From Promethearchaeota archaeon (GTDB lineage: Archaea; Asgardarchaeota; Lokiarchaeia; Sigyniarchaeales; SOKP01), in the NCBI GenBank assembly GCA_019058015.1, contig JAHLWH010000235.1, forward strand, positions 1-27,799: a stretch of DNA of 27,799 nucleotides. Direction: 5' to 3'. The position numbers and the translations under genes were made by a program. The notes under the pieces are model-generated. The model was not told the DNA's origin. It saw only the letters and a list, made by a program, of their open reading frames with translations, and did no database searches. This document shows positions 16,910 to 21,227 of this stretch, one piece after another; the stretch's first letter is position 1; every line of letters starts with the position of its first letter.

Positions 16910-18163
16910 ATGTGGGAAATTAACCCTTATGAAATAGCAAAAAAACAACTTGAGATAATTGCAAAAAAAATAGATTTACCTCCAAATATTGAAAAATTTC
17001 TCAAAAACATAGAACGTTCAGTTATTGTTTCAATTCCTGTCATCATGGATGATGGAAACCTTAAAATATTTGAAGGATTTCGTGTTCAACATTCCTCTGT
17101 TCTTGGTCCTTGTAAAGGTGGTGTACGATATAGCCAACTGGTGACACTTGATGAAATTAAAGCCTTAGCTATGCTAATGACTTGGAAAACAAGCCTTCAT
17201 AGACTCCCATTTGGAGGCTCAAAAGGAGGTGTTTGTGTTTATCCTAAAAATGTATCAAAAAGAGAATTAGAATGGATTACTAGAAGGTATACTGCAGAAA
17301 TAATTAATATGATAGGACCTAATAGAGATATTCCGGCACCAGATATTGGCACAGATGCTCAAATCATGGCATACATAATGGATACATATTCAATGCAGCA
17401 TGGAAAAACAATCCCTGGAGTTGTTACAGGAAAACCAATAGAAATAGGGGGGTCCCCAGGAAGAAGTGACGCAGCAGGAACTGGGCTTTTTTTTGTAATT
17501 GAAAAATATTGCGAGAAATTTGATTATGATTTAAAATCCATGACTATAGTTATTCAAGGATTTGGGAAAGTAGGCTCAGTTATTGCCAAAAAGTTATATG
17601 AATATGGATGTAAGATTATTGCAATTACTGAATTAGCGGGGGGAGTGTATTCTGAGAAGGATCTTGATGTAGACCAGTTAATAGAATGGAGAGACAAAGG
17701 AAAATTCCTTAAAGATTTTAAAGGAAATTCTATAAAATCAATTACCAATGAAGAACTATTCAAAATTAAATGCGATCTCTTAATACCTGCTGCAACAGAA
17801 AATCAAATTACTAAGCATAATGCAAATGATATCGATTGTAAAATTATTTTAGAGGGCGCTAACGGACCGACAACACCAAAAGCAGATGAAATTCTGAATA
17901 AAAAGGGCACTATTATTATTCCCGATATTCTTGCAAACGGTGGAGGCGTTATCGTTTCATATTTTGAATATGTCCAGGATATAAATGCATATTATTGGGA
18001 TTTAGAACGAGTCAATAAAGAACTAAAAAAGATTATCCTAGATACGTTTGAAAATGTTTGCAACCTTGCTAAAGAAAAGAAAGAGACCCTTCGAACTGCA
18101 TCTTATATGATTGCAGTTTCAAGAGTTGCAAAAGCTTTACAATTAAGGGGAATTTTTCCATAA
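16910..18163 (+). CDS. gdh: Glu/Leu/Phe/Val dehydrogenase (glutamate dehydrogenase), copy 1
   Basis: GPCKGGVRY, MTWK, PFGGSKGG, DIPAPD, VVTGKP, QGFGKVG, EGANGP and PDILANGGGV.VSYFE. Confidence 0.93.
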   Translation: MWEINPYEIAKKQLEIIAKKIDLPPNIEKFLKNIERSVIVSIPVIMDDGNLKIFEGFRVQHSSVLGPCKGGVRYSQLVTLDEIKALAMLMTWKTSLHRLPFGGSKGGVCVYPKNVSKRELEWITRRYTAEIINMIGPNRDIPAPDIGTDAQIMAYIMDTYSMQHGKTIPGVVTGKPIEIGGSPGRSDAAGTGLFFVIEKYCEKFDYDLKSMTIVIQGFGKVGSVIAKKLYEYGCKIIAITELAGGVYSEKDLDVDQLIEWRDKGKFLKDFKGNSIKSITNEELFKIKCDLLIPAATENQITKHNANDIDCKIILEGANGPTTPKADEILNKKGTIIIPDILANGGGVIVSYFEYVQDINAYYWDLERVNKELKKIILDTFENVCNLAKEKKETLRTASYMIAVSRVAKALQLRGIFP

Positions 18164-18261: not shown

Positions 18262-19512
18262 ATGGAAGTTAATCCTTTTGAAATGGCAAAACAACAATTG
18301 GCACTCGTCGCTGAAAAAATGAATTTAAATCCAGATGCACACTGTTTTCTTAAAAGAGTAGAAAGATCGTTAATTGTTTCAATACCCATTATTATGGATG
18401 ATGGTAGTCTTAAAATTTTCGAAGGATATCGTGTTCACCATTCAACTATTCGAGGTCCTGGAAAAGGTGGAGTGCGCTTTAGCCCTTTAGTTACTCTTGA
18501 TGAGGTTAAAGCGTTAGCAACTTGGATGACTTGGAAATGTGCTCTTCACAATCTCCCTTTAGGCGGTGCTAAAGGTGGAGTCTGTGTTGATCCTAATAAG
18601 TTGTCAAAAAGGGAACTTGAACGACTTACAAGGAGATATACTGCGGAAATTATTAGTATTATTGGACCAGATAAAGATATTCCTGCTCCAGATGTAGGTA
18701 CTAATGCCCAAACTATGGCTTGGATAATGGATACATATTCAATGCAATATGGAAATACTGTACCTGGAGTAGTCACAGGAAAGCCTTTAGAAATCGGAGG
18801 TTCGCCAGGAAGAAGTGAAGCAACGGGAACTGGCCTTTTTTTTGTAATAGAAAAATATTGTGAAAAAGAAGGTCTTGATTTAAAATCTATGTCTGTAATT
18901 ATTCAAGGTTTTGGAAAAGTTGGTTCCATTATTAGCAAAAGGCTGAATGAAAATGGGACAAAAATAATTGCAATTTCAGAATACTATGGTACAATTTATT
19001 CTGAGAAAGGTTTAAATATAGATGAATTAATAAAATGGCAAGAAAGTGGAAAACTTATTACTGATTTTAAAGATGATACTATTAAGATCATTCCCAATGA
19101 AGAATTTTTTAAAATTAAATGTGATATTATAATTCCAGCAGCAACAGAAAATCAAATAACTGAGCATAATGCAAATGATCTCAATTGTCAAATTATTTTA
19201 GAGGGCGCAAACGGACCAACAACACCAAAAGCAGATGAAATTCTAAATAAAAAGGGAATAGTTGTTATTCCCGATATTCTTGCTAACGGAGGGGGTGTGA
19301 TCGTTAGTTATTTTGAATACGTTCAGGATATAAATGCCTATTATTGGGATTTGGAGAGAGTGAATAAGGAACTAAAGAAAATTATTCTTAATGCATTTGA
19401 AGCTGTGTATAAACTAGTTAAAGAAAAAAATGTATCTTATAGAATTGCAGCATATATGATCGCCGTCTCAAGGGTTGCGAGGGCAATTGAATTACGGGGA
19501 ATCTTTCCATAA
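18262..19512 (+). CDS. gdh: Glutamate dehydrogenase, copy 2
   Basis: GPGKGGVRF, MTWK, PLGGAKGG, DIPAPD, GRSEATG, EGANGP and PDILANGGGV.VSYFE. Confidence 0.94.
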   Translation: MEVNPFEMAKQQLALVAEKMNLNPDAHCFLKRVERSLIVSIPIIMDDGSLKIFEGYRVHHSTIRGPGKGGVRFSPLVTLDEVKALATWMTWKCALHNLPLGGAKGGVCVDPNKLSKRELERLTRRYTAEIISIIGPDKDIPAPDVGTNAQTMAWIMDTYSMQYGNTVPGVVTGKPLEIGGSPGRSEATGTGLFFVIEKYCEKEGLDLKSMSVIIQGFGKVGSIISKRLNENGTKIIAISEYYGTIYSEKGLNIDELIKWQESGKLITDFKDDTIKIIPNEEFFKIKCDIIIPAATENQITEHNANDLNCQIILEGANGPTTPKADEILNKKGIVVIPDILANGGGVIVSYFEYVQDINAYYWDLERVNKELKKIILNAFEAVYKLVKEKNVSYRIAAYMIAVSRVARAIELRGIFP

Positions 19513-19612
19513 TTGAAATTTTAGTTCTAAAAAATCTTTTTTAATTTAACTTAAAAGTGATAAAATCACTGAAATTTTTAAATTGTATCATTAATGTCAT
19601 AAAAGATAGAAT

Positions 19613-19769
19613 GCAAATCGCACTAAATTTCTGAGTTCGGAAAGGGATCAGGTTTTTCCAACATCCTATGACCGTTAACGAATTAACAGTTTACAGTTTC
19701 CCAATAATCGCAATATCAGTACTATCTGTAACGATATGTTGTTTAACTTCCAGTCTAGTGCGAAAATGC
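19613..19769 (-). other. BHB-like processing stem flanking the permuted 5S rRNA
   Basis: UCGCACUAGA (19763-19754) pairs over 10 bp with UUUAGUGCGA (19627-19618). The central helix is CUGG/UCAG, with bulges AAG (19749-19747) and AAA (19630-19628). Confidence 0.85.
19629..19747 (-). rRNA. rrf: 5S rRNA, circularly permuted (canonical 3' half 19747-19683, UUCG linker 19682-19679, canonical 5' half 19678-19629)
   Basis: Reordered, it folds as 5S: helix I UUAACGGU/ACUGUUAA; helix II GGAUGUUG/CAACAU(A)UC with bulged A; helix III ACCUGA/UCAG(AA)GU; loop C UCCCUUUCCGAAC; helix V UUACAG/CUGUAA; loop E AGUA/GAA. Total length is 119 nt. Confidence 0.92.
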
Positions 19770-19937
19770 TATAAATTTATAATAAACCCTTTTATTTTAA
19801 TTTTACTTTTTGCATACTATTTTCATTCTAATTGTAATATTCCAACGTTTATTATGATTATTTTCTTAAAGATCTTAAATTTAATTAATTAACTTTTAAA
19901 AAATTTAAATAGTTCTGAAAATAATCTTAAAATATCG

Positions 19938-20477
19938 ATGCCTAATAAAATACTTATATTTTTCAAACGTGTTGGGCGTAATTGGTTTCTAATTTTTTTA
20001 ATAGCCGTGATTTTTGTTTTTTTTATCGAGCAGATCCTAGCAATTTGGTTAGTGGGTATTGCACTAGTTTTATATATGTTGTCATATCTTCCTAATATCT
20101 TCTTCAAAAGAGCCTTAAAAGGAAAAATGATGGAATACTATATGATTGAAGAAGATACAATTGCTTATAAAATGAAAAAACCCTTGAGAAAGATTAGAGA
20201 AACGTTATTTAAATTTTCTCAAAAACAACACAAAAAACCGTATCTAATTGTTTATTTGGATAATAGATATATTTATTTCCACGAGGAAACAGTAAATAAG
20301 TTTAATGAACTTTATAAAAAAGGATTTGGTGAGAAGGAAATGCTCGAAGGAATGAAAAAATACGATTTACAAATAAAATCAGAGGTCAAATGTATCTTGT
20401 CTACTCTCAAAAAATTTAATCGGTTACCAGAAAGAGAGATCTCTGTAAAAGAGTATAGAGATAAGGATAAATATTAA
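19938..20477 (+). CDS. Hypothetical membrane protein (two N-terminal TMs, basic soluble domain)
   Basis: 179-aa ORF with a hydrophobic N-terminal hairpin; transcribed divergently from the 5S gene. Confidence 0.7.
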   Translation: MPNKILIFFKRVGRNWFLIFLIAVIFVFFIEQILAIWLVGIALVLYMLSYLPNIFFKRALKGKMMEYYMIEEDTIAYKMKKPLRKIRETLFKFSQKQHKKPYLIVYLDNRYIYFHEETVNKFNELYKKGFGEKEMLEGMKKYDLQIKSEVKCILSTLKKFNRLPEREISVKEYRDKDKY

Positions 20478-20717: not shown

Positions 20718-21227
20718 ATGAAAATTTTGACTGCCGGAGAGGGCGGAGTAGGAAAAACAACACTTTTACGCCGTTTTGTCGAAGGGCAATTCTTCTCAGA
20801 GACAAAGATGACCATTGGTGTGGAATTCTTTTTAAAATCTATTGTTTTAGGAGACAATGAGATTACACTTCAACTCTGGGATTTTGGTGGGCAAGAACGT
20901 TTTAGGTTTTTACTTGGAAGTTATGTTTTAGGGGCTAAAGGAGCATTTCTAATGTTTGATCTTACAAGAATAGCAACATTAGAAAAACTTGAACAATGGG
21001 TTCAAATTGTGCGCCAAAACGACCCTAACTTACCTATTTTATTTCTTGGGACTAAAATTGATTTAATAGAAGATATTAATGTGAATGATGACTATGCCTT
21101 ATCATATCTCGAATCTTTGAATTTGTTTGATTATCTCAAGATATCTTCAAAAACCGGTGAAAATGTTGAGGAATCCTTTAAACGCTTAACTCAAGAAATA
21201 TTAGAACGTCAGGGTATTAAAATATAA
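20718..21227 (+). CDS. Rab/Ras-like small GTPase
   Basis: G1 GEGGVGKTT, G2 TIGVEF, G3 WDFGGQERF, G4 GTKID, G5 SSK; no C-terminal Cys. The start may lie slightly upstream (see findings). Confidence 0.93.
   Translation: MKILTAGEGGVGKTTLLRRFVEGQFFSETKMTIGVEFFLKSIVLGDNEITLQLWDFGGQERFRFLLGSYVLGAKGAFLMFDLTRIATLEKLEQWVQIVRQNDPNLPILFLGTKIDLIEDINVNDDYALSYLESLNLFDYLKISSKTGENVEESFKRLTQEILERQGIKI

What the first reader, a model, noticed from the sequence alone, without database searches (positions are those of the whole stretch)
19613..19769. Circularly permuted 5S rRNA gene predicted to mature into a covalently closed circle via BHB splicing
Seen: the minus strand reads leader-UCGCACUAGA-CUGG-AA|GUUAAACAACAUAUCGUUACAG...CUGUAAACUGUUAA-UUCG-UUAACGGUCAUAGGAUGUUGGAAAAACCUGAUCCCUUUCCGAACUCAG-AA|A-UUUAGUGCGA. 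The canonical 3' half comes first, and the normal 5'/3' ends of helix I are fused by a UUCG loop. The gene is instead opened at the bulged AA of helix III. The flanks form a 10-bp stem, a 4-bp helix (CUGG/UCAG) and 3-nt bulges; the inner helix is imperfect, so the BHB is relaxed. Established: archaeal splicing endonuclease EndA cuts after the second bulge nucleotide and RtcB ligates. Permuted BHB-processed RNAs are known for Thermoproteus SRP RNA and some tRNAs, and permuted 5S is known from some organelles. Inference: cleavage and ligation give a 119-nt circle whose junction regenerates CCGAACUCAGAAGUUAA. I do not know of a described permuted, BHB-processed archaeal 5S gene, but cannot check the literature. 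Standard 5S models would probably see only a fragment.
Basis: partly seen in the sequence, partly recalled or inferred. Interest (0 to 1): 0.97.

Follow-up and report, generated by a model that had tools for sequence, protein, structure and literature searches.

The report
Permuted 5S rRNA gene with splice-site flanks
This Asgard archaeon, like most of its phylum, encodes its only 5S ribosomal RNA with the two halves in swapped order between tRNA-splicing-type cut sites, which probably explains why 5S genes have been reported as undetectable in Asgard genomes.

Summary
On the minus strand, 19763-19618 holds the 3' half of a 5S rRNA, a UUCG cap closing helix I, then the 5' half. It is flanked by a 10-bp stem, a 4-bp helix (CUGG/UCAG) and two 3-nt bulges.

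Rfam sees only sub-threshold halves (28.2 and 10.4 bits; cut-off 38). The predicted 119-nt product, once rotated, aligns without gaps to a profile of conventional 5S (60.5 bits). The genome has no other 5S candidate.

The arrangement is not local. 120 of 135 genomes of the family carry it. In a phylum sample of 151 genomes, 91 carry it, 50 have a conventional 5S and 10 have neither, and no family has both. Carriers include both closed Heimdallarchaeum genomes, for which a paper reported 5S as unpredictable.

The flanking stem and 4-bp helix covary. At 5S boundaries, 28 of 39 units have the exact motif, against 3 of 3432 displaced sites. Relatives break the gene at two other sites, and some carry a 30-nt splice-type intron; the same cut rule restores a canonical 5S each time.

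Two EndA paralogues and RtcB are encoded. No RNA data could be found, so cleavage, ligation and a persistent circle remain inferred. Literature searches found no description.

The parts
19776..19786 (-). A/T-rich TATA-like element (TTTATTATAAA) about 23 nt upstream of the leader stem; candidate archaeal promoter
   Evidence: Read. Similar AAAnTTTATATA-like boxes lie about 40 nt upstream of the cut site in relatives printed. Inferred; my regex count was too strict to be useful.
19754..19763 (-). Leader strand of the outer processing stem (UCGCACUAGA)
   Evidence: Pairs with 19627-19618 in both MFE and centroid. The outer helix covaries across 17 type-A units.
19750..19753 (-). Leader strand of the 4-bp central BHB helix (CUGG). 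It mimics the 5' strand of helix III and is discarded after cleavage.
   Evidence: 67 of 68 cells paired, with compensatory U-A/C-G changes.
19747..19749 (-). 5' three-nucleotide bulge AAG; predicted cut between 19748 and 19747
   Evidence: Geometry. Cut rule (after the second bulge base) validated by junction reconstitution.
19629..19747 (-). Predicted 119-nt 5S rRNA product (ends joined 19629 to 19747)
   Evidence: the rotated product aligns gapless to a conventional 5S profile at 60.5 bits. R1 gives 95.8 bits and R2 84.7 bits on its core, 19748-19647.
19683..19747 (-). Canonical 3' half of 5S: G-U of helix III, helix II 3' strand, helices V and IV with the loop E motifs, helix I 3' strand CUGUUAA
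19679..19682 (-). UUCG tetraloop capping helix I where a normal 5S has its 5' and 3' ends
   Evidence: UUCG is the cap in 21 of 51 distinct units; UNCG or UUUG types predominate.
19629..19678 (-). Canonical 5' half of 5S: helix I 5' strand UUAACGG, loop A CAUAG, helix II, loop B, helix III 5' strand, loop C CCGAAC, UCAG, AA
19631..19634 (-). UCAG: trailer-side strand of the central BHB helix before cleavage, and 3' strand of helix III afterwards (partner switch)
   Evidence: it pairs with both the leader CUGG and the internal CUGA, and all three covary.
19628..19630 (-). 3' three-nucleotide bulge AAA; predicted cut between 19629 and 19628
19618..19627 (-). Trailer strand of the outer processing stem (UUUAGUGCGA)
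19601..19604 (-). Run of four U (UCUUUUA) 14 nt after the stem; candidate transcription stop
   Evidence: Read; inferred.

Best explanation
This is the genome's single, functional 5S rRNA gene, encoded in circularly permuted order: 3' half, UUCG-capped helix I, then 5' half.

Proposed pathway:
- A short transcript of its own folds so that leader and trailer form a 10-bp stem plus a 4-bp helix (leader CUGG with UCAG of the 5S).
- That helix is flanked by two 3-nt bulges. This makes a relaxed bulge-helix-bulge (BHB) motif with no inner helix.
- The tRNA-splicing endonuclease EndA, here a two-paralogue enzyme, cuts after the second base of each bulge.
- RtcB joins the two ends of the excised piece.
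- UCAG then swaps partner from the leader CUGG to the internal CUGA, forming helix III with its AA bulge.

The product is a 119-nt covalently closed 5S rRNA with a fully canonical sequence, and it most likely stays circular in the ribosome.

Shown here: the permuted order, the 5S fold by covariation, the motif and its covariation, exact reconstitution of the canonical sequence, uniqueness in the genome, distribution across the phylum, and presence of the enzymes.

Inferred: transcription limits, EndA cleavage, ligation, and persistence of the circle.
For: **Gene identity**
- Two swapped half-hits to RF00001.
- The rotated product aligns gapless at 60.5 bits to a profile of 9 conventional 5S genes, against 28.8 and 22.9 bits for the native halves.
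- RNAalifold on 17 native cores predicts helices II, V, IV and a capped helix I; 19 of 25 pairs carry compensatory changes.
- On 29 cores from 19 families, 94.3% of cells pair and 18 of 20 pairs change on both sides. Covariation is 0.808 against 0.213 for shuffles (0 of 500 reach it) and 0.10-0.18 for slid controls.

**Only 5S in the genome**
- This locus is the only RF00001 match in the 94%-complete genome.
- R1 and R2 each hit it once.

**Conservation**
- 120 of 135 genomes of the family match R1 at full length, 82-114 bits.
- None of the 25 family genomes searched, or of the 29, has a conventional 5S over the cut-off.
- In the phylum sample of 151 genomes, 91 are permuted, 50 conventional and 10 neither. 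No family has both.
- Closed genomes carry only the permuted form.

**Bulge-helix-bulge motif**
- The MFE and centroid folds contain the outer stem, the central helix and the 3' bulge.
- On 17 type-A units the central helix pairs in 67 of 68 cells, with U-A/C-G and G-C/G-U/A-U exchanges. All 10 outer pairs change on both sides. Covariation is 0.472 against 0.213 (0 of 500) and 0.07-0.17 when slid.
- At 5S boundaries fixed by homology, 28 of 39 units have a perfect 4-bp helix, two 3-nt bulges and an outer helix of at least 3 bp. Only 3 of 3432 displaced sites do.

**Cut rule cross-validated**
- Helix III, including the two pairs that span the junction, pairs in 102 of 102 cells.
- In 16 of 16 type-B relatives (break in loop C), the motif that gives the best 5S product restores a loop C of the same length as the contiguous loop C of type-A relatives; in most (e.g. 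L018, L025) the sequence is identical.
- The one type-C relative restores loop B.
- In 7 of 8 units with a loop-C insertion, the insertion is a 30-nt splice-type intron. Removing it raises the score by 13-16 bits.

**Enzymes**
- Two EndA paralogues of 200 and 206 aa (TIGR00324, 110.5 and 88.6 bits), one with weak beta-subunit matches.
- RtcB at 577.5 bits.
Against: - No RNA evidence. No RNA run holds the sequence. The two unknown-kind runs that were laid gave DNA-like contigs colinear with the genome and no joints, and the two RNA runs laid gave nothing.
- There is no inner helix, so the motif is relaxed. Cleavage then depends on a broad-specificity EndA, which I infer from the two paralogues and from recalled literature.
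- Single-sequence thermodynamics do not support the mature fold. The circular MFE of the product is -14.5 kcal/mol, z = 0.13 against shuffles, and only helix I is recovered. The precursor z-score is only -1.97.
- The native locus fails Rfam's gathering score, and RF00001 could not be run on the rotated sequence.
- A naive scan that ranks motifs by the longest outer stem picked the boundary motif in only 9 of 42 AT-rich family units and 13 of 23 units from other families.
- 11 of 39 type-A units lack a perfect motif at the three registers tested.
- Known archaeal 5S maturation uses other nucleases: tRNase Z in Haloferax and cuts at A/U-rich motifs in M. maripaludis.
Confidence: 0.7

Rival explanations
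1. Circular intermediate only. [quoted passage not shown] The ribosome would then hold an ordinary linear 5S with normal ends.
For: Re-linearisation of BHB-derived circles is the accepted route for archaeal 16S and 23S (passages of PMC12918454; abstract of PMC10515664). Permuted tRNA genes of C. merolae are expressed through a circular intermediate (title in the reference list of PMC4267664). The cap tolerates 30-nt insertions in some relatives (L026), as a discarded spacer would.
Against: The cap is mostly a stable UNCG or UUUG tetraloop: UUCG 21, UUUG 8, UACG 3, CUCG 2 of 51 distinct units. It directly closes a 6-7-bp helix I that covaries. That pattern looks like selection for a permanent closure. 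No conserved cleavage motif is visible at the cap. The permuted SRP RNA of Thermoproteus stays circular (abstract), and circular 23S is reported within ribosomes.
Confidence: 0.12
2. Cut but not joined. The motif directs excision, and the 5S then works as a linear, permuted molecule with its ends at the AA bulge of helix III. This would resemble the permuted mitochondrial 5S of brown algae, which stays permuted in the final RNA.
For: The two ends would sit next to each other in a bulge held by helix III (102 of 102 cells paired), so the fold does not need a covalent link. Valach et al. describe a 5S that is permuted in the final product (passages).
Against: RtcB is encoded. Exact restoration of canonical length and sequence at three different break sites and at the intron is what selection on a joined product predicts. 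Intron removal in loop C requires ligation in any case.
Confidence: 0.1
3. The flanking stem is an ordinary leader-trailer processing helix cut by other nucleases (RNase III-like, tRNase Z, Nob1-like or unknown). The resemblance to a BHB motif would then be incidental.
For: Archaeal 5S precursors are matured by tRNase Z or at A/U-rich motifs in the species studied. The inner helix of a strict motif is missing.
Against: The exact 4-bp helix, 3-nt bulges and adjacent outer helix sit at the 5S boundary in 28 of 39 units, against 3 of 3432 control sites. The same geometry recurs at break sites B and C and at the intron. The central helix covaries.
Confidence: 0.05
4. Not a working gene: an assembly artefact, a rearranged pseudogene or a relic, with the real 5S lying in unassembled DNA.
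For: The genome is a 283-contig draft, 94% complete. rRNA genes are often missing from such bins.
Against: The same order is found in 120 of 135 family genomes and in closed one-contig genomes of several families, which lack any conventional 5S. Independent contigs from other runs are colinear. Strong compensatory covariation shows purifying selection on the fold.
Confidence: 0.01

Closest known systems
Permuted, circularised SRP RNA of Thermoproteus tenax (Plagens et al. 2015, eLife, PMC4731332; abstract read)
   Same: A universal structured RNA whose canonical gene 'could not be found'. [quoted passage not shown]
   Different: A different RNA (5S rRNA, a ribosome component). It occurs across most of a phylum rather than in a few species. 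It shows three alternative break sites plus introns. RNA-level proof exists there and not here.
[quoted passage not shown]
   Same: The rRNA is excised from a leader-trailer stem at a BHB motif by EndA, and the excised rRNA is circularised.
   Different: Those genes are colinear with the mature RNA, so circularisation there is not needed to restore the sequence. PMC12918454 states that this pathway concerns 16S and 23S 'but not 5S rRNAs'.
Circularly permuted tRNA genes (Soma et al. 2007, Cyanidioschyzon merolae; seen only as a citation and a sentence in PMC4267664) and split or intron-bearing archaeal tRNA genes (recalled)
   Same: The 3' half precedes the 5' half, native ends are linked by a short spacer, and expression goes through BHB-type cleavage and ligation. 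Introns and break points occupy interchangeable positions.
   Different: In tRNAs the circle is re-opened to give normal ends. Here the cap looks permanent. The RNA family also differs.
Permuted mitochondrial 5S rRNA of brown algae (Valach et al. 2014, PMC4267664; passages read)
   Same: A 5S rRNA whose helix I is closed into a hairpin and which standard models miss or mis-delimit.
   Different: There the ends lie at the junction of domains alpha and gamma, the RNA stays linear and permuted, and no splicing motif or ligation is involved. Here the break is in helix III, loop C or loop B, and the canonical sequence is predicted to be restored.
Circularly permuted 23S rRNA of Pyrococcus furiosus (PMC7758197; search listing and start of abstract only)
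   Same: An archaeal rRNA whose mature topology differs from the gene because of circularisation.
   Different: There the gene is colinear and the RNA becomes permuted. Here the gene is permuted and the RNA becomes canonical.

Membership tests
5S rRNA (Rfam RF00001) | Scores at or above the gathering threshold (38 bits) with the covariance model | tested here: not met
   Native locus 28.2 bits; upstream half alone 10.4 bits; nothing at gathering. This is as expected for a permuted gene.
5S rRNA (Rfam RF00001) | Full-length sequence similarity to bona fide 5S once the order is restored | tested here: met
   nhmmer profile of 9 conventional 5S genes of the sister family: the rotated product scores 60.5 bits over positions 3-115 of 118 without gaps.
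5S rRNA (Rfam RF00001) | Three-way junction with helices I, II-III and IV-V supported by covariation | tested here: met
   Helices I, II and IV: 94.3% of cells paired and 18 of 20 pairs compensatory. Helix V was predicted. Helix III across the junction: 102 of 102 cells paired.
5S rRNA (Rfam RF00001) | It is the cell's 5S: no other candidate in the genome | tested here: met
   sole match in a 94%-complete draft. Closed genomes of other carriers have only permuted copies.
BHB substrates of the archaeal tRNA-splicing endonuclease | Central helix of exactly 4 bp | tested here: met
   CUGG/UCAG. 67 of 68 cells paired, with compensatory changes, in 17 units.
BHB substrates of the archaeal tRNA-splicing endonuclease | Two 3-nt bulges on opposite strands, each 3' of its strand of the central helix | tested here: met
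   AAG and AAA. The exact geometry occurs at the 5S boundary in 28 of 39 type-A units, against 3 of 3432 displaced sites. That this orientation equals the pre-tRNA one is argued from recalled tRNA numbering.
BHB substrates of the archaeal tRNA-splicing endonuclease | Flanking helices on both sides (strict hBHBh') | tested here: not met
   The outer helix is present (10 bp). No inner helix exists between UUAAAC and CCGAAC. The motif is therefore relaxed (hBH), not strict.
BHB substrates of the archaeal tRNA-splicing endonuclease | Actual cleavage by EndA and ligation by RtcB | not testable with these tools
   The genes are present: two PF01974/TIGR00324 proteins and RtcB. No RNA data were available.
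Permuted genes for BHB-processed circular RNAs (Thermoproteus SRP RNA type) | Gene halves in swapped order, with the native ends fused by a loop | tested here: met
Permuted genes for BHB-processed circular RNAs (Thermoproteus SRP RNA type) | Junction-spanning transcripts or circular RNA detected | not testable with these tools
   No RNA holder was listed and no joints were seen in the runs laid.
Organellar permuted 5S rRNA (brown-algal type, Valach 2014) | Ends at the alpha/gamma junction, with the final RNA linear and permuted | tested here: not met
   The break lies in the AA bulge of helix III, not at the three-way junction. Only RF00001 matched in the Rfam scan of the locus.

The most novel reading that the evidence does not exclude
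Most Asgard archaea, including the Heimdall- and Hod-labelled groups and the closed Heimdallarchaeum genomes, build their ribosomes with a covalently closed circular 5S rRNA made by the tRNA-splicing machinery. The permuted gene would be old, possibly ancestral to the phylum, and conventional genes in a minority of families would be reversions. The break point would have moved between at least three sites and been joined by 5S introns. On this reading 5S rRNA genes in this phylum undergo the same intron, split and permutation dynamics known for archaeal tRNA genes.
Probability: 0.45. Interest if true: 0.95.

Novelty: new variant of a known kind. Interest (0 to 1): 0.9.

Why it matters
5S rRNA is a universal ribosome component and a required item in genome-quality standards.

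- **It may close a published gap.** Wu et al. [quoted passage not shown] Both genomes turn out to carry two permuted copies each. A covariance model of the permuted core (R2) finds the gene in 91 of 151 sampled genomes of the phylum. Annotation pipelines could be fixed with such a model.
- **It would extend the tRNA-splicing enzymes to 5S rRNA.** The recent literature I read explicitly excludes 5S from this pathway.
- **It predicts a closed helix I in the ribosomes of the archaea closest to eukaryotes.** This can be tested directly by RNA sequencing, RNase R treatment and cryo-EM.
- **It offers a natural series for studying how permuted RNA genes arise and move.** The series comprises three break sites, introns and partial duplications.

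Tried and rejected
- **RNA evidence.** No RNA holder was listed. Of the four runs laid, two of unknown kind gave one contig each (702 and 4764 nt). These were colinear with the genomic order over 19601-19840, with 8 differences and no joints. The two RNA runs gave nothing. This says nothing about expression.
- **Rfam on the reordered sequence.** Not possible with the tools; I used nhmmer in a script instead.
- **Single-sequence folding of the predicted circle.** It recovered only helix I and was no more stable than shuffles, so it was uninformative.
- **Naive motif ranking by longest outer stem.** It failed in most AT-rich family flanks. I replaced it with a test anchored on homology.
- **TATA-box regex across units.** Too strict, nothing usable.
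- **The sigma-70 promoter and terminator scanner.** Not used, because it does not cover archaea.
- **Protein atlas call on the neighbouring glutamate dehydrogenase.** It gave bacterial look-alikes and no taxonomy.
- **Permuted 5S outside Asgard.** The two non-Asgard archaeal loci that matched R2 weakly (labelled Thermofilum and Thermoplasmata, 45 bits) hold conventional 5S genes of 89.2 and 79.7 bits. The 20 other loci, 19 bacterial and one labelled Desulfurococcales, did not match R2. No case outside the phylum was seen, but the scan was not exhaustive.
- **Two odd record labels.** One record is labelled Thorarchaeota and one Hermodarchaeota, yet both carry sequences nearly identical to Loki-type family units. 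I did not rely on those labels.
- **First reading of the loop-C insertions.** I first took them for retained expansions. I rejected this once the intron cut rule restored a canonical loop C.
Full report
**1. What is in the window**

Reading 5' to 3':
- leader stem UCGCACUAGA (19763-19754);
- CUGG (19753-19750);
- AAG (19749-19747);
- a stretch that is the canonical 3' half of a 5S rRNA (to 19683);
- a UUCG loop (19682-19679);
- the canonical 5' half (19678-19629), which ends in CCGAAC-UCAG-AA;
- A, completing the 3' bulge AAA (19630-19628);
- trailer stem UUUAGUGCGA (19627-19618).

Rfam at curated thresholds reports nothing in the whole window. With relaxed thresholds RF00001 gives 28.2 bits (cut-off 38) at 19679-19558. 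Only model positions 1 to about 57 are really aligned, and the rest is forced onto downstream junk. The upstream piece alone gives a 5'-truncated 10.4-bit match, with GAAGUUAA, UAGUAC and UGGGAA of the 3' half in register. ARAGORN finds no tRNA.

The locus lies between two tandem glutamate dehydrogenase genes and a 179-aa ORF with no Pfam match, about 1 kb from a Ras-family GTPase gene.

**2. It is a complete 5S once the order is restored**

In a script I took the piece between the predicted cuts (19747 to 19629, 119 nt) and rotated it to open in the cap. I scored it with an nhmmer profile built from the 9 conventional 5S genes of the sister family.
- The rotated product scored 60.5 bits and aligned without a single gap over profile positions 3-115 of 118.
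- The native locus gave two separate hits, 28.8 bits (positions 3-58) and 22.9 bits (49-114), in swapped order.

One result does not help. The single-sequence circular MFE of the product (-14.5 kcal/mol) is no better than shuffles (z = 0.13) and recovers only helix I. Support for the fold therefore comes from comparison between genomes, not from thermodynamics.

**3. It is the only 5S candidate**

In the window's genome (3.84 Mb, 283 contigs, 94% complete) this locus is the sole RF00001 match at E <= 10, and nothing passes the cut-off. Models R1 and R2 each hit it once.

**4. Conservation in the family**

Among 41 relatives, conventional 5S genes over the cut-off were found in 9 genomes, all in family f2 (9 of 11). 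None of the 25 genomes of the window's own family f1, counting the window's genome, had one; they gave only weak half-hits. Printing those loci showed the same permuted order.

I aligned 17 native cores (A1). Without guidance, RNAalifold predicted helix II, helix V, helix IV and a capped helix I, and 19 of 25 pairs carried compensatory changes. A covariance model of this core (R1) found a full-length match of 82-114 bits in 120 of 135 genomes of the family and in 12 of 13 genera, nearly always one per genome.

**5. Conservation in the phylum**

I searched one sample of 151 genomes (at least 80% complete) three times.

- RF00001 at E <= 1e-6 found conventional genes in 50 genomes: f2 2/3, f12 30/32, f15 1/1, f17 14/14, f21 2/2, f29 1/1. 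It found none in the other 19 families.
- R1 picked up several of those 19 families.
- After fetching and reading examples from 19 families in all, I built the broader model R2 from 29 cores.
- R2 matched 93 genomes. Two matches (34-37 bits) merely overlap conventional genes, which leaves 91 permuted genomes.

| Family | Genomes with R2 match / sampled | Family | Genomes with R2 match / sampled |
|---|---|---|---|
| f1 | 27/29 | f19 | 6/6 |
| f8 | 4/4 | f20 | 2/4 |
| f9 | 1/2 | f22 | 1/1 |
| f10 | 16/17 | f23 | 5/6 |
| f11 | 1/1 | f24 | 4/4 |
| f13 | 4/4 | f25 | 2/2 |
| f14 | 1/1 | f26 | 7/7 |
| f16 | 3/3 | f27 | 1/1 |
| f18 | 3/3 | f28 | 1/1 |
| | | f30 | 1/1 |

Ten genomes had neither form, and no family had both. 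Kin are not independent, so these are counts and not statistics.

On the 29-sequence alignment, 94.3% of cells pair and 18 of 20 pairs change on both sides. The covariation score is 0.808, against 0.213 for shuffles (0 of 500 reach it) and 0.10-0.18 for slid controls.

**6. Named records**

It returned loci whose titles name Promethearchaeota, Heimdallarchaeota, Hodarchaeota, Odinarchaeota, Freyarchaeota, Atabeyarchaeia and Asgardarchaeum, among them the complete genomes of Candidatus Heimdallarchaeum aukensis and H. endolithica.
- R2 matched 60 of the 80 loci.
- The 20 non-matching loci were 19 bacterial records and one labelled Desulfurococcales.
- Two non-Asgard archaeal loci that matched weakly (45 bits) hold conventional 5S genes of 89.2 and 79.7 bits.
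- The two Heimdallarchaeum loci score 80.2 and 79.3 bits with R2, but only 25.2 and 31 bits with RF00001. Their flanks show the same motif, with a hairpin inserted in the leader.

Earlier scan notes call the window's genome a Loki-type Asgard archaeon. One earlier report on another Asgard genome mentioned a "rearranged 5S" in passing.

**7. The flanks form a splice-type motif, and it covaries**

RNAfold of 19612-19769 puts the 10-bp stem, CUGG/UCAG and the 3' AAA bulge in both the MFE (-36.6 kcal/mol, z = -1.97) and the centroid. On each strand the order, 5' to 3', is outer helix or inner side, then the 4-bp helix, then the 3-nt bulge. By my recollection of pre-tRNA numbering this is the canonical BHB orientation, with the inner piece being the one that is circularised. 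There is no inner helix, so the motif is relaxed.

On 17 type-A units aligned with 14 nt of each flank (A2):
- The 4-bp helix pairs in 67 of 68 cells, with exchanges U-A 9 / C-G 7 / U-G 1 and G-C 11 / G-U 4 / A-U 1.
- All 10 outer pairs change on both sides, and the four innermost pair in 14, 14, 13 and 12 of 17 units.
- The covariation score is 0.472, against 0.213 for shuffles (0 of 500) and 0.07-0.17 when slid.

The same trailer strand also pairs perfectly with the internal helix III strand. Together with the two pairs that span the junction, 102 of 102 cells pair. So the leader carries a covarying copy of the helix III 5' strand, which implies a partner switch after cleavage.

Anchoring on 5S homology alone, with three registers, 28 of 39 type-A units have a perfect 4-bp helix, two 3-nt bulges and at least 3 outer pairs exactly at the 5S boundary. 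Only 3 of 3432 displaced sites do. The 39 units include near-identical species of one genus.

A cruder scan that simply took the longest outer stem found the boundary motif first in 4 of 4 units of the window's genus. The figures were only 9 of 42 family units overall, and 13 of 23 units from other families.

**8. The cut rule is cross-validated by variants**

- **Type B.** Many relatives break the gene between the 5' strand of helix III and loop C. In 16 of 16 such units, the motif giving the best 5S product lies at that site. It yields 120-121 nt (151 nt in one unit with a helix IV insertion). The restored loop C has the length of the contiguous loop C of type-A relatives, and in most units it is identical in sequence, e.g. 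CCGGUC^CCAUCCGAAC.
- **Type C.** One family breaks in loop B, and the rule gives a 121-nt full-length product.
- **Intron.** Eight units carry about 30 extra bases in loop C. In 7 of them these form a motif with H UCCG/CGGG, 3-nt bulges and an inner helix. Removal by the same rule restores ...CCGAA^C and raises the profile score by 13-16 bits. The eighth shows a partial duplication instead.

Types A and B, and intron-bearing forms, coexist within single genera.

**9. Enzymes**

The genome encodes two tRNA-intron-endonuclease proteins.
- One is 200 aa (TIGR00324, 110.5 bits). It aligns to the C-terminal repeat of the two-unit EndA profiles and contains LEHSP.
- The other is 206 aa (88.6 bits). 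It aligns to the N-terminal repeat and has weak beta-subunit matches.
- They share 33% identity over 85 residues.

It also encodes RtcB at 577.5 bits. A heteromeric EndA is the type that I recall as having broad substrate specificity. A paper with that phrase in its title appears in the reference list seen.

**10. Circle or not**

The helix I cap is UUCG in 21 of 51 distinct units, UUUG in 8, UACG in 3 and CUCG in 2. That argues for a permanent closure rather than a processing spacer, though some relatives tolerate 30-nt insertions there.

No RNA data could be obtained. I therefore put about 0.7 on cleavage plus ligation giving a lasting circle. About 0.12 goes to re-opening at the cap, 0.1 to a nicked molecule, 0.05 to other nucleases and 0.01 to a non-functional locus.

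**11. Literature**

Searches run:

| Search terms | Papers holding all terms |
|---|---|
| 'permuted 5S' | 1 (Valach 2014) |
| 'circular 5S' | 2 (plant rDNA papers) |
| '5S rRNA' + 'circularly permuted' + 'archaea' | 28; 20 listed |
| '5S rRNA' + 'Asgard' + 'bulge-helix-bulge' | 7 |
| '5S rRNA' + 'Lokiarchae' + 'permut' | 2 |
| '5S rRNA' + 'Asgard' + 'circular' | 32; 25 listed |
| '5S rRNA' + 'Asgard' + 'permut' | 15 |
| '5S rRNA' + 'intron' + 'splicing endonuclease' + 'archaea', from 2015 | 40; 15 listed |

None of the listed titles or abstracts describes an archaeal permuted 5S gene or a 5S intron. The library holds open-access papers and preprints only, and I saw no supplements, so a description elsewhere cannot be excluded.

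Passages read:
- PMC12918454 says circularisation concerns 16S and 23S "but not 5S rRNAs".
- PMC8813620 says 5S genes could not be predicted in the Heimdallarchaeum genomes.
- PMC8997704 has nothing on this.
- Passages of Valach 2014 were read.
- The Plagens 2015 abstract was read.
- The Qi 2023 abstract was read.
- A passage of Schwarz 2020 was read.

**12. Verdict**

The mechanism belongs to a known kind: a permuted gene restored by the tRNA-splicing machinery, as for Thermoproteus SRP RNA. It is applied here to a ribosomal RNA across most of a phylum, with moving break points and introns. The maturation steps remain to be shown at the RNA level.

Noticed in passing
Relatives: L012, L014, L018, L025 and 12 more type-B loci (coordinates): A second break point. 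The gene is opened between the 5' strand of helix III and loop C, and the leader carries a copy of the helix III 3' strand. Types A and B occur within the same genera (g2, g7, g11).
   Followed up: yes
L011 (family f3), minus strand about 1351-1564: A third break point, in loop B: CGC-CCGA-AA|A // UCGG-AA|A-GCG, giving a 121-nt product.
   Followed up: yes
L048, L051, L035, L031, L046, L055 (family f1) and L077 (family f26), about 25-55 nt after loop A: A 30-nt BHB-type intron inside loop C of the permuted 5S gene, at ...CCGAA^C. It has H UCCG/CGGG and an inner helix. I found no description of an intron in a 5S rRNA gene.
   Followed up: yes
L040 (G104), trailer side of the unit: A partial tandem duplication of GGAUAAUACCCGGUCCC inside the helix III / loop C region. 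It may be a footprint of the duplications that move break points.
   Followed up: no
L026 (G009) and other 133-134-nt core matches; L025 (G023): Hairpin insertions of about 30 nt in the helix I cap (L026) and in the helix IV / loop D region (L025). The 5S of this family tolerates expansion segments.
   Followed up: partly
L082, L083 (family f18); L084, L144, L162 (family f10, Heimdallarchaeum): The leader holds an extra hairpin between the outer stem and the 4-bp helix. In f18 the hairpin lies between duplicated CGUG-AGA, so it could be removed as an intron sitting exactly at the junction.
   Followed up: partly
G183, G220, G162, G228, G270 (two R2 matches each) and G242 (four, at contig ends): Some genomes have two or more permuted 5S copies. 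In G242 the copies sit at the ends of short contigs, as in a collapsed repeat.
   Followed up: no
window 16910-18163 and 18262-19512 (+): Two tandem glutamate dehydrogenase paralogues directly beside the 5S gene.
   Followed up: partly
window 19938-20477 (+) and 20718-21227 (+): A 179-aa ORF with no Pfam family, followed by a Ras/Roc/Arf-type small GTPase gene of the kind typical of Asgard archaea.
   Followed up: no
window 19668-19892 (+): A 74-aa ORF listed mechanically antisense to the 5S gene and its promoter region. It is most likely spurious, yet gene callers could annotate it in place of the RNA gene.
   Followed up: no
L121 and L111 (titles; sequences): Records labelled Thorarchaeota and Hermodarchaeota carry 5S units nearly identical to Loki-type family f1 units. 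Either the labels or the bins may be wrong.
   Followed up: no
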